The notes: a model not told the origin generated them from the sequence alone. A DNA stretch of 16,694 nt from a virus (IMGVR_UViG_2617270968_000003:1-16694); one strand, 5' to 3'. Shown: positions 1,623 through 9,264, counted from the first letter of the stretch. Translations and numbers: made by a program.

Positions 1623-1746
1623 ATGTCTGCACCTGCACTGCCTGATGTCAGAACAGTATTTTGATGAATTGCCAAGGTTACAATGGCACAAATACGGCAC
1701 AGGAGGAAACGTGGTGTATTTAAATATGGGGTAACTCTTTGATTTT

Positions 1747-3276
1747 AATGGTGCCGATAATAGGAGTCGAACCTACGACCTTCGCATTACGAATTATAAG
1801 AATCCACTTCTAATTCAAAGCATTACCCCATCAACACTGCGCTCACACGTCCCACCACATCAAAACATGTAAAGCCTTGCAAGCCATTGTGAGGCCTTAT
1901 GTGTCTCAGTTTTGTCCCACCTTGTATTACGACTTGCATAGCCAATGAAGATCAACGTGACGACAAACGGCGCAGCAGTCTTCTTTTCCTTCATACTTTC
2001 CCCAATCAGCATACATACTTTCTACCATAACTGTAGTGAATGTCTGTTATGAGCGAGCAAAAGAGATTCAATTACCGGGGAATTACTCCGACATAAGCTC
2101 TCCCAGAAACACCGGAACAGCGATTCGCATATTCTCTTCTATACTTTCAGTCTGACCGGCTGGAGATTTCATAGCAAGAAAATGGATGCGCCAAGACCTA
2201 TGCGGGAAAGAGGCTGAGGAAATAATTGCCGATAGCACTGTGCCCGCCGAAAAGTTATCTGGCACGCAATGACGCGCGTCCTTGGGGCATCAGGAATCAG
2301 AGAGCCAACTTAACAACCCATTATATATTATTTAACCGGACCGTTACATGTACAAAGTTCAATGATTAGTGATTCTGTGACGCCACATACAACCTAAGCC
2401 CCTGATATAAAACCAGTCTATGCAACACCTAAAAATCATATATGATAGGGTGATAAGTCAACGCGCAGTATAAAAATCAAGCTAAAAAATGCTTTCAGCA
2501 TAGTGAATCTATTTCACACTACATAATTAAGGATGAAAAAATGACTGCACCAGTAATTAGTTTTATCAATATGAAAGGTGGGGTTGGTAAAACAACTTTA
2601 TGCGTTGGGATTGCTGAGTTTTTAGCCAACCATATGGGGCGCAAGGTTCTAGTTATCGATATTGATCCTCAATTTAATGCCACTCAGTCCTTAATGGGGC
2701 ATTATGATCGAGTAGAAGAATATATGACTGCCCTTCGCCCTAATAATCAAACCATTCGAAAGATTTTTGAGCTTCCAAATTCATTAATGGAAGATGAAAA
2801 GAAAGTGACACCAGAACAGGTCATTACTAAAGTTTCAGACAATCTTGATATTATCTTAGGTGATATAAACATTATCTTTGATACTAACCAAGAGGGTATT
2901 AGAATAAAAATGTTGCGTAAATTCATCACCGAAAATGACTTAAAAGAAAGTTACGACTATATCTTTATCGATAGCCCCCCAACAATCTCATTATTTACAG
3001 ATACCGCACTCCTTGCTTCTGATTATTATCTTACTCCGGTTAAAATTGATCACTACTCGGTGCTTGGAGCAAGCAGTTTAAATAGCGTTATAAGAAATAT
3101 GCGCACACATCATGAGAAAGAAATCAAGCAAGTCGGTTACATTTATACAAACACTGATGCTGAAATGACCAATAAAACAAGGGAAATTAAAGAGCAATTC
3201 GAAAACCATACTCAATTTACAAATTTTTATTTCTTTGAAAATCAATTAACCTACGTGCGTGATTTAATGGTAGGTT
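1747..3276. repeat. Direct repeat copy 1 (about 1530 bp) of the element's left end: att fragment, 745-bp leader, 5' 736 nt of ParA-like gene
   Basis: Matches 15165..16694 at offset 13,418; verified by eye at both ends and at internal points; two 60-aa ORF translations in the track are identical between copies. Confidence 0.85.
1749..1794 (-). other. 46-nt 3' fragment of tRNA-Thr(CGU) (thrW-type) - attachment-site copy (ptwF-like tRNA pseudogene), copy 1
   Basis: Plus strand reads TGGTGCCGATAATAGGAGTCGAACCTACGACCTTCGCATTACGAAT, the reverse complement of a tRNA 3' end (CCA, acceptor stem, T-arm GGTTCGACTCC, anticodon loop with CGT); similarity stops where the 5' half of a tRNA should be, so the gene is partial. 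Confidence 0.8.
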
Positions 3277-3386
3277 ATCAAGGGAATATTCCTTCTTGTT
3301 ATTCAAAGTCACGCCAAGATATAGAAAAGATCTGTAACGAATTTATTAACAGAGTGGCTCACTTGGAAGGTAACACAAATGAATAA
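2541..3386 (+). CDS. ParA/MinD/Soj-family P-loop ATPase (deviant Walker A), 281 aa; first gene of a three-gene operon
   Basis: N-terminal ISFINMKGGVGKTT (KGGxGKT deviant Walker A), VIDIDPQ, IFIDSPP (ParA-type Walker B region); ATG at 2541 with AAGGA SD 7 nt upstream; AT-rich. Confidence 0.85.
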   Translation: MTAPVISFINMKGGVGKTTLCVGIAEFLANHMGRKVLVIDIDPQFNATQSLMGHYDRVEEYMTALRPNNQTIRKIFELPNSLMEDEKKVTPEQVITKVSDNLDIILGDINIIFDTNQEGIRIKMLRKFITENDLKESYDYIFIDSPPTISLFTDTALLASDYYLTPVKIDHYSVLGASSLNSVIRNMRTHHEKEIKQVGYIYTNTDAEMTNKTREIKEQFENHTQFTNFYFFENQLTYVRDLMVGYQGNIPSCYSKSRQDIEKICNEFINRVAHLEGNTNE

Positions 3387-3777
3387 ACAATTAATTAAAG
3401 CGCTCAATAAAGCTAACAATATGCCCATGACCAAAGAAAACTTCTTAGGCTTGGTAATTATGTTGATTCTTTCAAAAGAGGTTTTTAGATCAAATTTTGA
3501 TGTTAGTAAATTTATTAACAAAACCTTCAAAATATCTTTTTTGAATTATGCTGTACGGTCAAGAACTTTGATGTGCGCTAAAATTTGCAAACATATTAAT
3601 GAATTAAGTGAGAATGACATAAAGATGGCTTATACGCATTTCTTAAACAACATTAACACATTAGACATTATTTTTAATGATGCAAATAAAACAAGCCAAA
3701 AATCCACATCTAAAAGCAAGCATGCTATAAGGAATTTAAATATTTGGATTAATGCAAATAAAAAGGAAGAAGAATAA
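3379..3777 (+). CDS. Hypothetical protein, 132 aa, Lys/Asn-rich; second gene of the ParA-like operon
   Basis: ATG at 3379 overlaps the ParA stop by 8 nt (ATGAATAA) with GGAAGG SD; same AT-rich composition; no motif I can assign. Confidence 0.6.
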   Translation: MNKQLIKALNKANNMPMTKENFLGLVIMLILSKEVFRSNFDVSKFINKTFKISFLNYAVRSRTLMCAKICKHINELSENDIKMAYTHFLNNINTLDIIFNDANKTSQKSTSKSKHAIRNLNIWINANKKEEE

Positions 3778-4442
3778 TGCTCACGCAGGATCCCTTCAAC
3801 ATTGGAAGAGATGTAAATTATTTTAGAGCGGAGGTGCAAAAGCACCTCAGAACCACTGATGAAATAAACAAATCAGTATCAATATTTAGGCAAATAAGTC
3901 TTTGTAATACAATTTTAAGTCACAATCCTAATCTAAATCACTCTTCTTATATAAAAGGTTTTATATATGATACCTTAAACTCCTTAATTGCCATTATAAA
4001 AAAAAGAGAACGGTATCTCCAACTGAACTTCCGCTCAATGGTGGAGCATGTGGCCAGAATAAGCCTCAATAAGAACTACAATGGTGGGGATTTTGACCAA
4101 ACTGTACGTCGTAGAGACTTTGACTTCTTAAAAGCCCAACAAGTCGATGAAGGCTGGTCTTATTTACATAATGTCTATATCAACGCCTGTTATTATGTTC
4201 ACTCCTCCCCCCAAGCGAACCTAAATGTTACATCAACATTTATATCACTTATGGAGGGAGATTGTAATTCAACACAGCATAAAATGGTGAAAAAACTTCA
4301 TGAGGTAGTATCGGCGCTGATGAGAATCATTATAAAGTATTATCATCAGCATATCTCAAACATTTTCTTTAGAAACAAAAAGGATTTAGAGAAAATAATG
4401 GGAAAAAGCCTTTATTCATATTATACCAGCTTAGACAATTAA
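3777..4442 (+). CDS. Hypothetical protein, 221 aa; third gene of the ParA-like operon
   Basis: ATG at 3777 overlaps the previous stop (TAATG) with AAGGAAGA SD; AT-rich; no recognisable domain by eye. Confidence 0.6.
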   Translation: MLTQDPFNIGRDVNYFRAEVQKHLRTTDEINKSVSIFRQISLCNTILSHNPNLNHSSYIKGFIYDTLNSLIAIIKKRERYLQLNFRSMVEHVARISLNKNYNGGDFDQTVRRRDFDFLKAQQVDEGWSYLHNVYINACYYVHSSPQANLNVTSTFISLMEGDCNSTQHKMVKKLHEVVSALMRIIIKYYHQHISNIFFRNKKDLEKIMGKSLYSYYTSLDN

Positions 4443-4479
4443 TTCTCTCATATTCATTGCGTAGAGCATAAATATCTAT

Positions 4480-4900
4480 CTAACCACCTAAAATGCCAGA
4501 AAATCTAGTTGTATACCGGTGCGAAAATATCTCGCGTTTCATCTGCCACTGCTGCTGAATGCCCTGCCCAGCGAAACAGAGTGTTTCCTTCCCGTCTTTT
4601 GCGTTGAGGTGCTCCAGCACGCTCATTAACTTTTCGCTCCCAGGACCCAGCGCGTTATCGTCGAATAGGTTAGGGCATGCTCTGACTGAAGAAGTCCCCC
4701 AGCATTACCCCGGCTTTCTGATATCGGTGTCCGTCTTTCCATATTGCATCCAGACTCCCCGTTGCTACTGCAATGATATCCCGACTGTCCTGTGTCGGGA
4801 TGAGCAGCTTCACCGACGCGTTGTTACAGTAGTACGACTCGTTCAACGCAAAGGGTATCGTGTAAAACCGATGATGACACTGCCGGCAATCAGCACTGAC
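4480..4900 (-). pseudogene. umuC: 3' remnant of a umuC-like Y-family (Pol V) translesion polymerase gene; frameshifted and truncated
   Basis: Minus-strand translation gives ...PFALNESYYCNNASVKLLIPTQDSRDIIAVATGSLDAIWKDGHRYQKAGVMLGDFFSQ, then after a frameshift NLFDDNALGPGSEKLMSVLEHLNAKDGKETLCFAGQGIQQQWQMKREIFSHRYTTRF, closely matching the remembered C-terminal ~140 aa of E. coli UmuC; no intact ORF, N-terminal 2/3 absent. Confidence 0.75.
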
Positions 4901-5372
4901 GTCAGCAAACGTGAGAAAGAACAGATAAGCCGAACGATTTAGGAAATGTTTGAAGAGACTGATATGTGGATGGTTTCAGTTTAAACGCCTTGAACCGTCA
5001 TATTACCTAAGTACAATCCGCTGTGACTGGCAATCATTCAATACTTGCACTATCAAAAGTGCATCAGCCAACCGCAGCACGTCTTGCATACGACCTGTCT
5101 GCGGTTTCAATCACCTCTCACCACCAGTCCCATCAATAATAATTAAACAGCGCCTAAACAAAATAAATAACAACAAGTCAACAACCTCGACAGGATGCCG
5201 ATGGGATGATGAAGAGATAAGAAAGAATAACTAGTAAAGCCCTAAAACGTCAGCGTTCAGACGCGTTTTTTACTTAACCGGTAACAAATACGTTGTATCA
5301 TAGCAACATAAAATGATTGTTCTAAATCAGATTAACTCCTCACTTTTGTACAATGTCGCTTACAGGTATACC

Positions 5373-7262
5373 ATGAAATCCGAGACGCTAACTGTCCAAC
5401 AACTTTTTCAAGACCGCCGACAATACTGTGTTCCATTCTATCAACGTGCCTATGTATGGACTCAGCGAAACCAATGGTCAGCTCTACTGGAGGATATCCT
5501 AGAGAAAGCACAATCCCGGCTCTCGGGTACAAAACCAACTCCCCATTTCCTTGGTGCAGTTGTACTGGAACCTCAACCAAAAAAAGGATTATTCGGTGTA
5601 GATTCCATACATATTATTGATGGTCAGCAACGATTGACCACTCTTCAATATGTTCTGGCATCCATCCGATTAGCATTACGTGCAACAGATCTTTCCAACT
5701 TAGAGCCTCTCATTTCGTCTTGCCTGAAAAACTCAAACGAAGACACAATGCGAAATAAAGAAGTAGAGCGCTTCAAACTGTGGCCAACTTTTCGGGATCA
5801 AACTCATTTTATTCAAAGTTTTAATGTTGAAAATATTGACGATATCCGGAATGTATTCTCTGATAGTTTCACGCAGCATGGTACGTTGCGTAAGCATTTT
5901 AATCACCCGCCATCACTAGAAGCATTATGTTTTTTTACTGAAGCCTTTATAAAGTGGATTAAAATAGAAAATCACTCACCACGAGAAAATGCTGTAGCAT
6001 TAATTGAGGCTGTCTTGACGGATCTGAAACTAGTAAGCATATTTCTCGAGGCTGAAGATGACGCTCAAATAATTTTTGAAACATTAAATGGCAGAGGTGC
6101 GGAACTTCATGCCACAGATCTTATTCGCAATTATATTTTTATGTGCGCTGAACATGAAAATATTAATGCTGTTGAATTATATGAGAATGAGTGGAAGATC
6201 TTTGAAGATACGTACTGGTCAGAAAGACAACGTCGTGGTCGTATTAATAAACCACGCATGGAGTGGCTAGTGCATGCAACATTGCAATCAGAAAGGCAAC
6301 GTGAAATCGATCTGTCTCGTCTTTACAATGAGTATCGTGATTATGTAAGTAAGGACTTGCCTTCACAACGAGCAGATCTGCAAGTAAAGCGCCTCAAACA
6401 ATATGCATCACAATATAAAGAATTGGTTGGTGGTTTTGGCACAACCCCCATCTCACACTTTGGACATCGCATCGCAGCCTATGATGTGACGACACTTTAT
6501 CCGCTTGCTTTGTTCATTTCGATAGCTAACATCGCCGATGATGAGAAAGCAGCCATGTATAATGATCTTGTCTCCTACGTAGTACGAAGAGCCGTATGTG
6601 GCCTGACGCCAAAGAATTACAACAATGTATTTATGAATGTATTGCGGCACTTGTCTAAAACAGAAATTTCCAGTGTTGAGTTACGTAATATCCTCAATAG
6701 CTTAAATGGCGAAGCCTCACGTTGGCCTGGGGACTCAGAATTTCTCAACGCTTGCATCAATGCTCCACTTTATCCTGGCAGGCTCGACGCACCGAAAATG
6801 CGCTCAATGTTAACGGAACTTGAAAGAGAACTTTGTCGCCAAGTGAAGACAGAGAAGCCTGATGTTCCAAATCTTTCTAACCTCGATATCGATCATCTTA
6901 TGCCTCAAAGTTGGTATTCCTGTTGGCCTCTCGAAAATGGTCATATGGTGACAAATTCAGATGCTACGGTATTGAACCAAATTGTTCTGTCTGGAACCGA
7001 TCTTACCCCAGAACAGCTACTGGTAAGGAAACGGCAACAAGCGATAGCTACGTTGGGAAATCTAACTTTGCTTAACCTTAGCGTAAACCGTTCTGTTCAG
7101 AATGCTGTATTTCTGAAAAAACGTGATGCTCTCATCGTCCACACCAATCTACGACTGAACATTCCACTTATAGTTAAGGATAAATGGGATGAGGATGAAA
7201 TCCTGGAGCGGGGTAAAATGTTGGGGGAAATTGCATTGAAAGTATGGCCAAAACACGATTAA
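5373..7262 (+). CDS. GmrSD-family type IV (modification-dependent) restriction endonuclease: N-terminal DUF262 (ParB-like NTPase) + C-terminal DUF1524 (His-Me finger nuclease)
   Basis: DUF262 signatures VPFYQRAYVW and IIDGQQRLTT; C-terminal DIDHLMPQSW ... LGNLTLLNLSVNRSVQNAVFLKKR typical of DUF1524; about 630 aa. Start taken at 5373 (MKSETLT, weak AGG SD); in-frame ATG at 5313 is possible. Confidence 0.8.
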   Translation: MKSETLTVQQLFQDRRQYCVPFYQRAYVWTQRNQWSALLEDILEKAQSRLSGTKPTPHFLGAVVLEPQPKKGLFGVDSIHIIDGQQRLTTLQYVLASIRLALRATDLSNLEPLISSCLKNSNEDTMRNKEVERFKLWPTFRDQTHFIQSFNVENIDDIRNVFSDSFTQHGTLRKHFNHPPSLEALCFFTEAFIKWIKIENHSPRENAVALIEAVLTDLKLVSIFLEAEDDAQIIFETLNGRGAELHATDLIRNYIFMCAEHENINAVELYENEWKIFEDTYWSERQRRGRINKPRMEWLVHATLQSERQREIDLSRLYNEYRDYVSKDLPSQRADLQVKRLKQYASQYKELVGGFGTTPISHFGHRIAAYDVTTLYPLALFISIANIADDEKAAMYNDLVSYVVRRAVCGLTPKNYNNVFMNVLRHLSKTEISSVELRNILNSLNGEASRWPGDSEFLNACINAPLYPGRLDAPKMRSMLTELERELCRQVKTEKPDVPNLSNLDIDHLMPQSWYSCWPLENGHMVTNSDATVLNQIVLSGTDLTPEQLLVRKRQQAIATLGNLTLLNLSVNRSVQNAVFLKKRDALIVHTNLRLNIPLIVKDKWDEDEILERGKMLGEIALKVWPKHD

Positions 7263-7284
7263 TGCAATTAATAAAATGATTATA

Positions 7285-7310
7285 GCGGCCTTACATTAGT
7301 AAGGCCGCTA
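7285..7310 (+). terminator. Stem-loop downstream of the GmrSD gene (11-bp perfect stem AGCGGCCTTAC / GTAAGGCCGCT, 4-nt loop)
   Basis: Perfect inverted repeat 23 nt after the stop; trailing sequence only moderately T-rich, so may act as terminator or RNA-stability hairpin. Confidence 0.55.
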
Positions 7311-7512
7311 CTCACTATTAAATCCTTTAATTTGCAACAAGAACAGCAGTGTCAGCCCTAGGTTTCGGACTTTGTACCGCTTATCTTGTCTTCAAAAATC
7401 AGCTCGCATCCTGCACAGCTCAACGCATTACGTTGTAGATCGGTGTTCTGGTCATTTGTTGATACGCGTACATAGCCAATAAGCATGGTAGATCCCCCTG
7501 ACAAAAGCAGGA

Positions 7513-8085
7513 ATGATGCCATTTGCTCGTTATTTCTGCATTTTCATAAACGTTGGTTTGGGAGAAGGTGCTCCAGCTATTGGCGTTCCGTTCTTCTGGC
7601 CGTCCGCCGCAATGCCAAATACTGTAATCGACAGTTGGTCCAGTATGGTGTTTTTGAAGTTCAACGGCGCGAAATTCTCTGCCACTGATTACCCTGTGCT
7701 GGCGAAAGTGTTTCCGGCGCTAGCATTACCTGACGCACGGGGTGATTTCATTCGTATCTGGGATGATGGGCGCGGGATTGATGTCGGACGTACCCTACTT
7801 TCAGGGCAATCACACACAATTATGGATCATGCACACAATATGGAATTGTGGACGGGGGACGGGCTTGCCGCAGGAAGTGCACGGGAAGGAGTAAACCCAG
7901 GAATACTGGCTACATACGGTGACGGGGGAATAGTTAAAACGGACGAACCCGGTCTTAAGGTGCCTTCCTCACTACGAGCTCTTAGCTCTCGTAGTGTTAA
8001 ACGTTATGGTGAAATTAGTGGAAATGTAGATACAGAAACCCGTCCACGAAATATTGCATTTAACTTTCTGGTGAGGGCTAAATAA
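7513..8085 (+). CDS. Phage tail-fibre C-terminal fragment (tail-collar domain), 190-aa ORF; probably a remnant
   Basis: PFFWP...MPNTVIDSW...NGAKFSATDYPVLAKVFP...LPDARGDFIRIWDDGRGID fits the phage tail-collar pattern; C-terminal ...ETRPRNIAFNFLVRAK is tail-fibre-like; no N-terminal anchoring region and no other structural genes nearby. Confidence 0.5.
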   Translation: MMPFARYFCIFINVGLGEGAPAIGVPFFWPSAAMPNTVIDSWSSMVFLKFNGAKFSATDYPVLAKVFPALALPDARGDFIRIWDDGRGIDVGRTLLSGQSHTIMDHAHNMELWTGDGLAAGSAREGVNPGILATYGDGGIVKTDEPGLKVPSSLRALSSRSVKRYGEISGNVDTETRPRNIAFNFLVRAK

Positions 8086-8322: not shown

Positions 8323-9264
8323 TCACCCCCTGAATCCTGCCGGGATCTGGCTGTAGTCCACGTTGTCGTAACTGGCTTTGAAGTACGGGTCTTCACGTTT
8401 TTCTGTGTGCGTGCTGACGGACGGCGATAAGCGCAGGGAAAGCTCATCCCATTTTTCCCGCAACTTCGACGGGCTGAGCACGTTACGGCACCAGAACGGA
8501 TCGCGGCTGACGCGGCTGTACATCTCGCAGATTTGTTTGTGAGTACGACCATCCTGCACACACATCAGGCGAATTTCGTTTGCCCAGGCTGTCCAGTTAG
8601 GTTCTTTGGGACGAACCACCTCGCCGTCACATTCGGCGGCCTGCTCGTACAGGGCGATGATTTTTTTCCAGAGCCACTGTGCGCAGGTCAAATCATCCTG
8701 CGTTCCCCACTGGCGCTTTTTAGAGCTGAATACAACCGCATCAGGATGACGAGTTAAAAAATCCTGTTCATCCTTCTTCATGTCCGGTTGCGAAGCGTCC
8801 GGACGAGAAGTTTTTTTATCTGACGGATCATGTTTTGATTTTACTGACGGATCCCCGCCAGATTCTGACGGGTGAAAACCCGCTTTTTTGCCAGATTTCG
8901 ACGCATCAAATTTTGACGGGTCAGATTTTGATGCGTCAGATTTTGACGGGTCAGAATCTGACAGTTGAGAAAATGCCGCTGCCTGAAGCTTCGCAACGTT
9001 AAGCTGATAAACATTCGACGCATTGCGGTTACCCTGGCGACGCGCCTTACGCGTTAACCAGCCTTCTGCTTCCAGCCGTGCGATAGCCGTTCTGACGGTA
9101 CTCATCCCCGCGCCAATCTGGCGGGCAATGGTTTCAATTGATGGCCAGCACACACCTTCGTCATTACTGAAATCAGCCAGGCGGGCCATAATTGCCACGC
9201 TGGATAACTTCATGCCTGACGCAGCGCAACCATCCCATACATAGCCGGTTAATTTAGTGCTCAT
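8323..9264 (-). CDS. Phage replication initiation protein (lambda O-like: N-terminal winged HTH, pentapeptide-repeat linker, C-terminal domain), 313 aa
   Basis: N-terminus LSSVAIMARLADFSNDEGVCWPSIETIARQIGAGMSTVRTAIARLEAEGWLTRKARRQGNRNASNVYQLN resembles replication-initiator wHTH domains; GAGG SD before ATG at 9264; position after cro/CII genes on the same strand. Confidence 0.65.
   Translation of the reverse strand: MSTKLTGYVWDGCAASGMKLSSVAIMARLADFSNDEGVCWPSIETIARQIGAGMSTVRTAIARLEAEGWLTRKARRQGNRNASNVYQLNVAKLQAAAFSQLSDSDPSKSDASKSDPSKFDASKSGKKAGFHPSESGGDPSVKSKHDPSDKKTSRPDASQPDMKKDEQDFLTRHPDAVVFSSKKRQWGTQDDLTCAQWLWKKIIALYEQAAECDGEVVRPKEPNWTAWANEIRLMCVQDGRTHKQICEMYSRVSRDPFWCRNVLSPSKLREKWDELSLRLSPSVSTHTEKREDPYFKASYDNVDYSQIPAGFRG
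8861..8964. repeat. Imperfect tandem 15-bp repeats (GATTTTGACGGGTCA-like, about 6 units) inside the replication-initiator gene, encoding DPSKS/DASKS pentapeptide repeats
   Basis: Units at 8861, 8894, 8909, 8924, 8939 and a partial one at 8954; protein shows SDSDPSKSDASKSDPSKFDASKSGKK. Confidence 0.8.

What the first reader, a model, noticed from the sequence alone, without database searches (positions are those of the whole stretch)
5373..7262. GmrSD-family type IV restriction enzyme inserted where umuC was truncated
The DUF262 + DUF1524 architecture is that of GmrSD/BrxU-like enzymes that cut modified (for example glucosyl-hmC) phage DNA. The gene has its own upstream region and a perfect 11-bp hairpin downstream, and abuts the point where the umuC-like remnant loses its N-terminal two thirds, suggesting a cassette insertion into an older umuDC locus. 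Together with the ParA-like operon it forms a compact defence-cargo region.
Basis: partly seen in the sequence, partly recalled or inferred. Interest (0 to 1): 0.55.

Follow-up and report, generated by a model that had tools for sequence, protein, structure and literature searches.

The report
Known prophage GmrSD restriction enzyme allele
This gene is an intact, near-identical copy of the well-studied E. coli prophage enzyme GmrSD, which cuts the sugar-modified DNA of T4-like phages.

Summary
The ORF at 5373-7262 (+) is real and encodes a 629-aa single-chain GmrSD. Both Pfam domains match well above their cut-offs: GmrSD_N/DUF262 and GmrSD_C/DUF1524. It aligns without gaps to two enzymes that have been studied experimentally: 94.0% identical to Eco94GmrSD and 96.2% to the UTI89 enzyme. 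The DGQQR motif and the essential residues D507, H508 and N522 are all kept, and dN/dS is about 0.12-0.17. The downstream hairpin exists, with 12 perfect pairs rather than 11.

The insertion story is not supported.
- The umuC remnant (about 4480-4861, minus strand) directly abuts a dinI fragment, not gmrSD, which starts 512 bp away.
- The same umuC'/dinI' junction occurs at 99.6% identity in strain CUPF09, where a type II restriction-modification pair takes the place of gmrSD.
- Compared with an intact pinE, window 5118-7364 replaces 422 bp inside the pin invertase gene.
- That gmrSD-pin' junction is present in 303 genomes, against 306 that carry gmrSD, at thrW, icd and ssrA prophages.
- This is the slot that holds mcrA in K-12 e14.

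The link between gmrSD, a phage invertase and tail-fibre genes is already in the literature. The ParA operon has no support as a defence system. Verdict: already known, low interest.

The parts
5373..7262 (+). gmrSD coding sequence: 629-aa single-chain type IV (modification-dependent) restriction endonuclease. N-terminal DUF262 ParB-like NTPase domain with DGQQR at residues 83-87; C-terminal DUF1524 HNH nuclease domain with D507, H508, N522.
   Evidence: 94.0% identical to Eco94GmrSD and 96.2% to UTI89_C2960, with no gaps.
5111..5372 (+). Cassette leader that travels with gmrSD in UTI89-type loci. It contains one weak sigma-70-like match (TTAACC-16-TATCAT, 5274-5301) about 70 nt upstream of the ATG.
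   Evidence: The promoter is a consensus match only and has not been shown to be used.
7263..7363 (+). Cassette 3' flank between the gmrSD stop codon and the point where pinE similarity resumes.
   Evidence: Conserved in the UTI89, PA45B, H22 and YZ22PE67 loci.
7283..7310 (.). Perfect 12-bp stem with a 4-nt loop, 21 nt after the stop codon. Probably a 3' stabiliser or terminator-like element, but it lacks a U-tract on the + strand.
   Evidence: dG -22.5 kcal/mol, z -7.15. In UTI89 one arm changes C to T, which keeps a G-U pair only in the + strand RNA.
7364..7486 (-). pin' : the first 41 codons of a pinE-type serine invertase, with the C-terminus missing. This is the right-hand edge of the replacement.
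   Evidence: About 96% identical to K-12 pinE over 7363-7500.
5027..5110 (.). ~80-bp structured repeat that normally lies just 3' of pin genes at prophage ends. 5107-5109 corresponds to the pinE stop codon. This is the left-hand edge of the replacement and the point where the cargo differs between strains.
4856..4942 (+). dinI' fragment (N-terminus missing), joined directly to umuC'.
   Evidence: 87% identical to a Citrobacter phage dinI-like gene over 4858-5026.
4480..4861 (-). umuC' : frameshifted C-terminal third of a prophage-type umuC. A neighbouring relic, not the insertion site of gmrSD.
   Evidence: (71% identical to chromosomal umuC over 4497-4856).

Best explanation
The gene is a functional allele of the prototype Escherichia coli prophage-borne GmrSD (the EcoCT596 / Eco94 / UTI89 GmrSD group).

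Inferred mechanism, by homology to Eco94GmrSD and BrxU: the N-terminal DUF262 (ParB/Srx-like, DGQQR) domain binds and hydrolyses NTP. This licenses the C-terminal DUF1524 HNH nuclease (D507-H508...N522) to make double-strand cuts in DNA that carries 5-hydroxymethylcytosine or glucosyl-5hmC. Incoming T-even-type phage genomes are destroyed, while the host's unmodified DNA is spared. No methyltransferase partner is needed.

Genomically, the gene is cargo at the tail-fibre/invertase end of an e14/SfII-like prophage, here a heavily deleted remnant integrated at thrW. A 2.25-kb segment (leader, gene and hairpin) replaced the interior of the pin invertase gene once. The resulting gmrSD-pin' module has since moved between prophages at thrW, icd and ssrA by recombination.

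The adjacent umuC' and dinI' fragments are decayed SOS-type cargo from the same prophage-end region. They were joined by a separate deletion.
For: Shown here:
- Both Pfam domains score above their gathering cut-offs, and the PADLOC type IV model matches over the full length.
- The protein is gap-free and colinear with Eco94GmrSD (94.0% identity) and UTI89GmrSD (96.2%). DGQQR 83-87, E271, E273, E278, D507, H508 and N522 are conserved (reference sequences from the supplement of PMC4437046).
- The gene is under purifying selection, dN/dS 0.12-0.17 across four alleles.
- The identical protein is on 114 public contigs, in a 90%-identity cluster of 1185 members.
- The gene is in 306 of 5426 complete E. 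coli genomes, always on the chromosome.
- Against an intact pinE locus (L006), window 5027-5117 corresponds to the repeat plus the pinE 3' end, and window 7365-7568 to the pinE 5' end plus upstream sequence. So 5118-7364 replaces 422 bp of pinE.
- The right junction is present in 303 genomes.
- The same module lies next to tail-fibre and baseplate genes in UTI89 at ssrA, H22 at icd and YZ22PE67 at thrW.
- In K-12 e14 the equivalent slot holds mcrA. In other strains it holds mcrBC-like genes or FRG + AAA + HNH genes.

From the literature:
- Eco94GmrSD cuts glc-5hmC and 5hmC DNA, is stimulated by ATP, and restricts T4 delta-ip1 more than 10^6-fold. The D507A, H508A and N522A mutants are inactive. 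The gene lies 'immediately downstream' of the tail-fibre genes (PMC4437046).
Against: - No activity was tested for this allele.
- Purified UTI89 enzyme, the closest characterised relative, was inactive in vitro under every condition tried, although the UTI89 strain restricts some T-even phages.
- The allele has T at position 280, where Eco94 and UTI89 have K, and the Eco94 E278A/K280A double mutant had little or no activity. However, T280 recurs in several other natural alleles, including one found on 134 contigs.
- The surrounding prophage is badly degraded.
- Expression is not shown. The promoter call is a weak consensus match, in a region where such matches are no more frequent than in shuffles.
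Confidence: 0.88

Rival explanations
1. One reading: a gmrSD cassette was inserted into an older umuDC locus, and that insertion removed the N-terminal two thirds of umuC.
For: A umuC C-terminal remnant lies 512 bp upstream on the opposite strand. Temperate phages do carry umuDC between the integrase and the tail fibres, so a former umuDC cargo locus is real.
Against: - umuC' is fused at 4856-4858 to a dinI fragment, not to cassette sequence.
- The identical umuC'/dinI' junction and flank up to window 5110 (99.6% identity) exists in CUPF09 with a type II R-M system and no gmrSD.
- gmrSD modules in UTI89, H22 and YZ22PE67 have no umuC nearby.
- The cassette ends map to the pin stop codon and to pin codon 41.
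Confidence: 0.04
2. The gene is a decaying, non-functional passenger in a dead prophage: an intact reading frame, but catalytically or regulatorily silent.
For: - The prophage has lost its morphogenesis genes; tail-fibre fragments are fused to replication genes.
- pin, umuC, dinI and the SOS-response peptidase gene are all pseudogenes.
- The allele carries K280T.
- Purified UTI89 enzyme was inactive in vitro.
Against: - The ORF is a full 629 aa with no frameshift.
- dN/dS is 0.12-0.17.
- Every mutationally validated catalytic residue is kept.
- T280 is shared by other widespread alleles.
- The identical protein is kept on 114 contigs, while its neighbours decay around it.
Confidence: 0.08
3. 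The protein is the nuclease component of a larger multi-gene system, like BrxU in BREX or SspE in phosphorothioate defence, and works together with the neighbouring ParA operon.
For: There are weak N-terminal PADLOC hits to SspE models and to Orf5/HEC-06 models. The ParA operon lies 930 bp upstream in the same cargo region.
Against: - The best PADLOC hit by far is the stand-alone type IV model (1436 bits against 259 or less).
- There are no BREX or ssp genes in the window.
- gmrSD occurs without the ParA operon in UTI89, H22 and YZ22PE67, and the ParA operon occurs without gmrSD in CUPF09.
- Eco94GmrSD works alone when cloned (PMC4437046).
Confidence: 0.02

Closest known systems
Eco94GmrSD (ECSTEC94C_1402, WP_000834395) and EcoCT596GmrSD, the prototype single-chain GmrSD type IV restriction enzymes of E. 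coli prophages
   Same: 629 aa, gap-free alignment and 94.0% identity. DGQQR, E271/E273/E278 and D507/H508/N522 are identical. Both are prophage-borne and lie immediately next to tail-fibre and invertase genes.
   Different: There are 38 substitutions, 26 of them in the first 170 residues. In that region this allele belongs to the UTI89 class (84.7% identity to Eco94 against 94.1% to UTI89). It has K280T. The host prophage here is a deleted remnant at thrW rather than a 41.5-kb SfII-like prophage.
EcoUTI89GmrSD (UTI89_C2960, WP_000834402.1, the 'UT enzyme')
   Same: 96.2% identity. The leader, hairpin and pin' junction are the same (window 5029-7567 is 96.2% identical in nucleotides to the PA45B locus, whose GmrSD protein is identical to that of UTI89).
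   Different: There are 24 substitutions, including H524 here where UTI89 has R524, two residues after the catalytic N522. The integration site is ssrA in UTI89 and thrW here. By the literature, the UT enzyme is insensitive to T4 IPI* and spares T4 but restricts T2 and T6. Whether this allele behaves the same way is not known.
mcrA of the K-12 e14 prophage
   Same: Also a type IV (modification-dependent) HNH restriction gene, in the same prophage slot between the attachment site and pinE and the tail fibres.
   Different: It is an unrelated protein family with a different specificity (5mC/5hmC). In e14 pinE stays intact, whereas gmrSD loci keep only the first 41 codons of pin.
BrxU (GmrSD-family enzyme inside the pEFER BREX locus)
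   Same: DUF262 + DUF1524 architecture, DGQQR and DH..N motifs, and nucleotide-controlled cutting of modified DNA (PMC8565348).
   Different: It is only about 13% identical to GmrSD by the literature, is plasmid-borne and is embedded in BREX. No BREX genes are present here.

Membership tests
GmrSD family (type IV restriction, DUF262 + DUF1524) | N-terminal DUF262 / GmrSD_N (ParB/Srx-like) domain | tested here: met
   PF03235 at residues 8-256, E=6.8e-34, 118.2 bits against a cut-off of 33.2.
GmrSD family (type IV restriction, DUF262 + DUF1524) | Invariant DGQQR nucleotide-hydrolysis motif within (I/V)(I/V)DGQQRLTT | tested here: met
   IIDGQQRLTTL, with DGQQR at residues 83-87. The motif definition is from PMC4619093.
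GmrSD family (type IV restriction, DUF262 + DUF1524) | C-terminal DUF1524 / GmrSD_C HNH (His-Me finger) domain | tested here: met
   PF07510 at residues 451-619, E=5.4e-20, 72.1 bits against a cut-off of 23.
GmrSD family (type IV restriction, DUF262 + DUF1524) | Catalytic D-H...N residues (Eco94GmrSD D507, H508, N522; the alanine mutants are inactive) | tested here: met
   D507, H508 and N522 are present at the same positions. C517, N528 and N535 are also kept. The mutagenesis data are from PMC4437046.
GmrSD family (type IV restriction, DUF262 + DUF1524) | Both domains on one polypeptide, joined by a helical linker and colinear with a characterised member | tested here: met
   629 aa against 629 aa with no gaps; 94.0% identity to Eco94GmrSD and 96.2% to UTI89GmrSD.
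GmrSD family (type IV restriction, DUF262 + DUF1524) | NTP-stimulated cutting of 5hmC / glucosyl-5hmC DNA, and restriction of T-even phages | not testable with these tools
   Shown for Eco94GmrSD and CT596GmrSD (PMC4437046). Inferred here from 94% identity.
E. coli prophage gmrSD-pin' module | gmrSD followed by the hairpin and a pin fragment of 41 codons next to invertible tail-fibre genes | tested here: met
   The junction-spanning query is found in 303 genomes.
BrxU / BREX-associated GmrSD | Embedded in a BREX locus (brxA/B/C, pglX, pglZ, brxL) | tested here: not met
   No such genes among the window ORFs or in the RefSeq annotation of the identical locus.
SspE (phosphorothioate-sensing DUF262 nuclease) | Full-length match to SspE, with sspBCD modification genes adjacent | tested here: not met
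   Only residues 8-120 match the SspE models, at 55 bits or less. There are no ssp genes nearby.
   The breakpoint at 4856-4861 abuts dinI'. The same junction is present in gmrSD-free CUPF09.

The most novel reading that the evidence does not exclude
The structured ~80-bp repeat that lies just 3' of pin genes (window 5027-5110) may be a recombination anchor defining a defence-gene exchange hotspot at the tail-fibre end of e14-like and lambdoid prophages. It is present in 5394 of 5426 E. coli genomes, with a median of 3 copies. Across the strains sampled here this slot holds gmrSD, mcrA, mcrBC-like genes, a type II R-M system or FRG+AAA+HNH genes. In addition, this gmrSD allele has a UTI89-class N-terminal region but Eco94-type residues such as H524, next to the active site. 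It could be a natural recombinant with its own phage range or its own sensitivity to the T4 inhibitor IPI*.
Probability: 0.3. Interest if true: 0.35.

Novelty: already known. Interest (0 to 1): 0.14.

Why it matters
The finding adds little. The enzyme family, this E. coli prophage lineage of it and its position next to tail-fibre and invertase genes were all described between 2007 and 2015, and the exact protein is already in RefSeq.

Three things are still useful.
- Public annotation calls the protein only 'DUF262 domain-containing protein'. It can safely be renamed GmrSD (type IV restriction).
- Strains carrying it, about 5.6% of complete E. coli genomes, should be expected to resist some T-even phages. 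That matters when choosing phages for therapy.
- The mapped boundaries show that acquiring the gene destroyed the Pin invertase. The same slot holds different restriction genes in different strains, which makes it a small, tidy example of defence-gene turnover at a prophage end.

Tried and rejected
Nothing closer than 71-73% nucleotide identity turned up in E. coli genomes, plasmids or phages. Only the gene order could be compared, using phages Oslo and PHB10.
- Rfam scan of 4400-7700. It gave only two sub-threshold chance hits inside the coding sequence and nothing for the hairpin or the 80-bp repeat.
- A possible intrinsic terminator upstream of the promoter-like site (5236-5280). Its fold is no better than shuffles (z = +0.14), so it was dropped.
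- The solved-structure sequence search returned only a weak DUF262 match (9jfl_B, E=1e-7). With 94% identity to a characterised enzyme, structure prediction was not needed and was not run.
- tblastn against the phage collection found no close gmrSD homologue in any deposited phage genome (best 24-28% identity). The gene is seen only in integrated prophages.
- K280T was considered as an inactivating change. It was rejected as a private lesion because T280 recurs in other natural alleles.
- The ParA operon was tested as a defence system against PADLOC, NCBIfam and PHROGs, with no support.
- The alternative start codon at 5313 was rejected in favour of 5373, which matches the experimentally expressed proteins.

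Full report
**Where the window comes from.** The window is a stretch of E. coli chromosome. Positions 4400-7500 are 100% identical to strain BS74R-D. In the RefSeq annotation of that strain the window runs from paoD to a tyrosine integrase next to tRNA-Thr (thrW). A 64-bp repeat of the thrW-proximal sequence lies at 1731-1794. Everything from about 1795 to the integrase therefore belongs to DNA integrated at thrW. The order of features is:
- a LysR fragment and an SOS-response-peptidase fragment;
- a ParA gene and two hypothetical genes, in a stretch of about 30-35% G+C;
- a umuC C-terminal fragment (DUF4113) on the minus strand;
- a dinI fragment;
- the gene of interest;
- a fragment of a serine recombinase gene and tail-fibre fragments;
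- e14-type replication and immunity genes (ymfL, ymfT, ymfK), then the integrase.

The morphogenesis genes are gone, so this is a heavily deleted prophage remnant.

**The observation.** The ORF is real (5313..7262). Pfam finds GmrSD_N (PF03235, residues 8-256, E=6.8e-34) and GmrSD_C (PF07510, residues 451-619, E=5.4e-20), both far above their gathering scores. A 629-position PADLOC model for type IV methyl-directed restriction enzymes matches end to end at 1436 bits. The downstream hairpin is there, with arms 7283-7294 and 7299-7310: 12 perfect pairs, not 11, and a 4-nt loop. As RNA it folds at -22.5 kcal/mol, z = -7.15. No U-tract follows it on the coding strand, and the consensus scan scores it as terminator-like only on the opposite strand. 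In UTI89 one arm carries a C-to-T change that keeps a G-U pair only in the + strand RNA. That is a weak hint that it acts on the gmrSD transcript.

**What the protein is.** The supplement of He et al. 2015 (PMC4437046) prints the sequences of EcoCT596GmrSD, Eco94GmrSD and the UTI89 enzyme. The window protein has the same length (629 aa) and aligns to them without gaps. It is 94.0% identical to Eco94GmrSD and 96.2% to UTI89_C2960 (UTI89 confirmed independently from its genome).

The DGQQR motif (83-87) is conserved. So are D507, H508 and N522, whose alanine mutants abolish cutting by Eco94GmrSD, and E271, E273 and E278. One position stands out, K280T, because the Eco94 E278A/K280A double mutant was nearly inactive. 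T280 recurs, however, in several other natural alleles, including one found on 134 contigs and one from E. albertii. It is a shared polymorphism and not a lesion.

Across four alleles dN/dS is 0.12-0.17, so the gene is under purifying selection. The first 170 codons show a synonymous divergence of 0.66-0.74 between the UTI89/window class and the H22/YZ22PE67 class, against 0.07-0.14 for the rest of the gene. The alleles are therefore mosaics of two old N-terminal types. The exact protein is on 114 public contigs, in a 90%-identity cluster of 1185 members, all labelled only 'DUF262 domain-containing protein'.

**How it most likely works.** This step is inferred, not tested. By homology with Eco94GmrSD (PMC4437046) and the structurally characterised BrxU (PMC8565348), the DUF262 domain binds and hydrolyses NTP. 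The DUF1524 HNH domain then cuts DNA containing 5hmC or glucosyl-5hmC. For Eco94GmrSD the preferred sites have two modified cytosines on opposite strands 17-23 bp apart. This destroys incoming T-even-type genomes, and no cognate methyltransferase is needed. Eco94GmrSD restricts T4 lacking the IPI* inhibitor more than 10^6-fold. The UTI89 strain restricts some T-even phages but not T4, and its enzyme is reported to be insensitive to IPI*. Which of these phenotypes this allele has cannot be told from sequence.

The umuC remnant (71% identical to chromosomal umuC over 4497-4856) ends at 4856-4861, directly against a dinI fragment (4856-4942, with dinI-like similarity running to 5026). It does not end against gmrSD. 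Strain CUPF09 carries the same SOS-peptidase' - ParA - hyp - hyp - umuC' - dinI' block. It is 99.5% identical over window 1743-5110 and 99.6% over 4400-5110. It then continues with a type II restriction endonuclease, a C5 methyltransferase and a GIY-YIG gene before lambdoid tail-fibre genes. The umuC truncation therefore exists without gmrSD and is a separate event. Temperate phages vB_SosS_Oslo and PHB10 show the intact order integrase - (SOS-response peptidase) - umuC - umuD - tail fibre. So umuDC was ordinary prophage cargo here and later decayed. One deletion across the 5' part of umuC, umuD and the 5' part of a divergently oriented dinI would produce the observed junction. That is inference, because no close intact relative was found.

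**What the cassette actually displaced.** Most partial matches to this region in other E. coli genomes cover only window 7363-7500, which is the 5' end of pinE (95.7% identical to K-12 pinE). Against a locus with intact pinE (L006), window 5027-5117 aligns to the ~80 bp downstream of pinE plus its last 11 nt. The pinE stop codon corresponds to window 5107-5109. Window 7365-7568 aligns to the first 122 nt of pinE and its upstream region. Window 5118-7364 is 2247 bp and comprises the leader, gmrSD and the hairpin. It thus replaces 422 bp of the pinE interior.

A 201-bp query spanning the right junction is found nearly complete in 303 genomes, against 306 that carry gmrSD. The replacement therefore happened once. 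The left junction is shared by 218 genomes. The gmrSD-pin' module sits beside tail-fibre and baseplate genes in prophages at ssrA (UTI89, PA45B), at icd, which is the e14 site (H22), and at thrW (YZ22PE67 and this window). In K-12 e14 the slot between the attachment site and pinE holds mcrA. In other strains it holds mcrBC-like genes or FRG + AAA + HNH genes. It is a recurrent site for restriction-type cargo.

**Comparison with what is known.** All of this is established. He et al. [quoted passage not shown] They say the same for the UTI89 and APEC O1 copies. Machnicka et al. [quoted passage not shown] The present locus is one more allele of that lineage. I did not find in the papers read that the invertase next to gmrSD is a 41-codon stump whose interior was replaced by the cassette, or that the left edge falls at the pin stop codon beside a widespread 80-bp repeat. 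Both are minor refinements.

**The ParA operon.** The 281-aa protein is a generic ParA/AAA_31 ATPase. The two downstream proteins match only PHROG families of unknown function (phrog_6264, phrog_7540). There is no significant PADLOC hit and no NCBIfam hit above cut-off. The operon occurs without gmrSD in CUPF09, and gmrSD occurs without it in UTI89, H22 and YZ22PE67. Calling it 'defence cargo' is unsupported, though not excluded.

**Verdict.** The insertion-into-umuC story is wrong. The finding is an already known enzyme in its already known context, so interest is low.

Noticed in passing
window 5027-5110: An ~80-bp unannotated repeat is present in 5394 of 5426 complete E. coli genomes (median 3 copies, up to 8). 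Where its surroundings were inspected it lies at prophage ends, usually just 3' of a pin gene: K-12 Qin near pinQ, and e14-type loci. A weaker copy (84% identity) sits in the core ecpE-ykgJ intergenic region. It folds into two hairpins (z -3.5 and -2.9) and has no Rfam match. In CUPF09 a 38-bp copy also flanks the far side of the R-M cargo. It may be the pin terminator or 3' UTR, and it may serve as a recombination anchor for cargo exchange.
   Followed up: partly
window 2541-4442: A low-GC (about 30-35%) three-gene operon: a ParA-like ATPase, a 132-aa protein and a 221-aa protein. The last two match only PHROG families of unknown function (6264, 7540). The operon is conserved at about 99.5% identity in CUPF09 at a different chromosomal site. 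Its function is unknown and it is not in PADLOC v2.
   Followed up: partly
window 4856-4861: A clean junction between a minus-strand umuC C-terminal third and a plus-strand dinI fragment. It is consistent with a single deletion that removed the umuC 5' part, umuD and the dinI 5' part from a divergent umuDC/dinI cargo pair. No close intact relative was found; the best umuC match is 73% in nucleotides.
   Followed up: partly
window 1731-1794 and the thrW side beyond 15152: A 64-bp direct repeat (95% identity) of the thrW-proximal sequence marks the distal attachment site of the thrW-integrated element. It lies just after a LysR-family pseudogene next to paoD.
   Followed up: no
window 5373-5882 (codons 1-170 of gmrSD): The N-terminal part of gmrSD falls into two deeply diverged allele classes (dS 0.66-0.74), while the rest of the gene differs by dS 0.07-0.14. 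This indicates recombination between old N-terminal types, possibly linked to phage inhibitor escape.
   Followed up: partly
window 7513-8085 and 8323-9264: A tail-collar-domain fragment is followed almost directly by an e14-type replication/HTH gene on the opposite strand. This marks a large deletion of the morphogenesis genes. In BS74R-D the alignment with the window breaks at about 7953-7960, where that strain carries an extra IS66-family element (ISCro1) absent from the window.
   Followed up: no
L002, L003 and L008 (PA45B, CUPF09, UTI89): A LEM-3-like GIY-YIG domain gene recurs in the same prophage-end cargo region, beside gmrSD or beside the type II R-M system. It may be another variable cargo gene of unknown role.
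   Followed up: no
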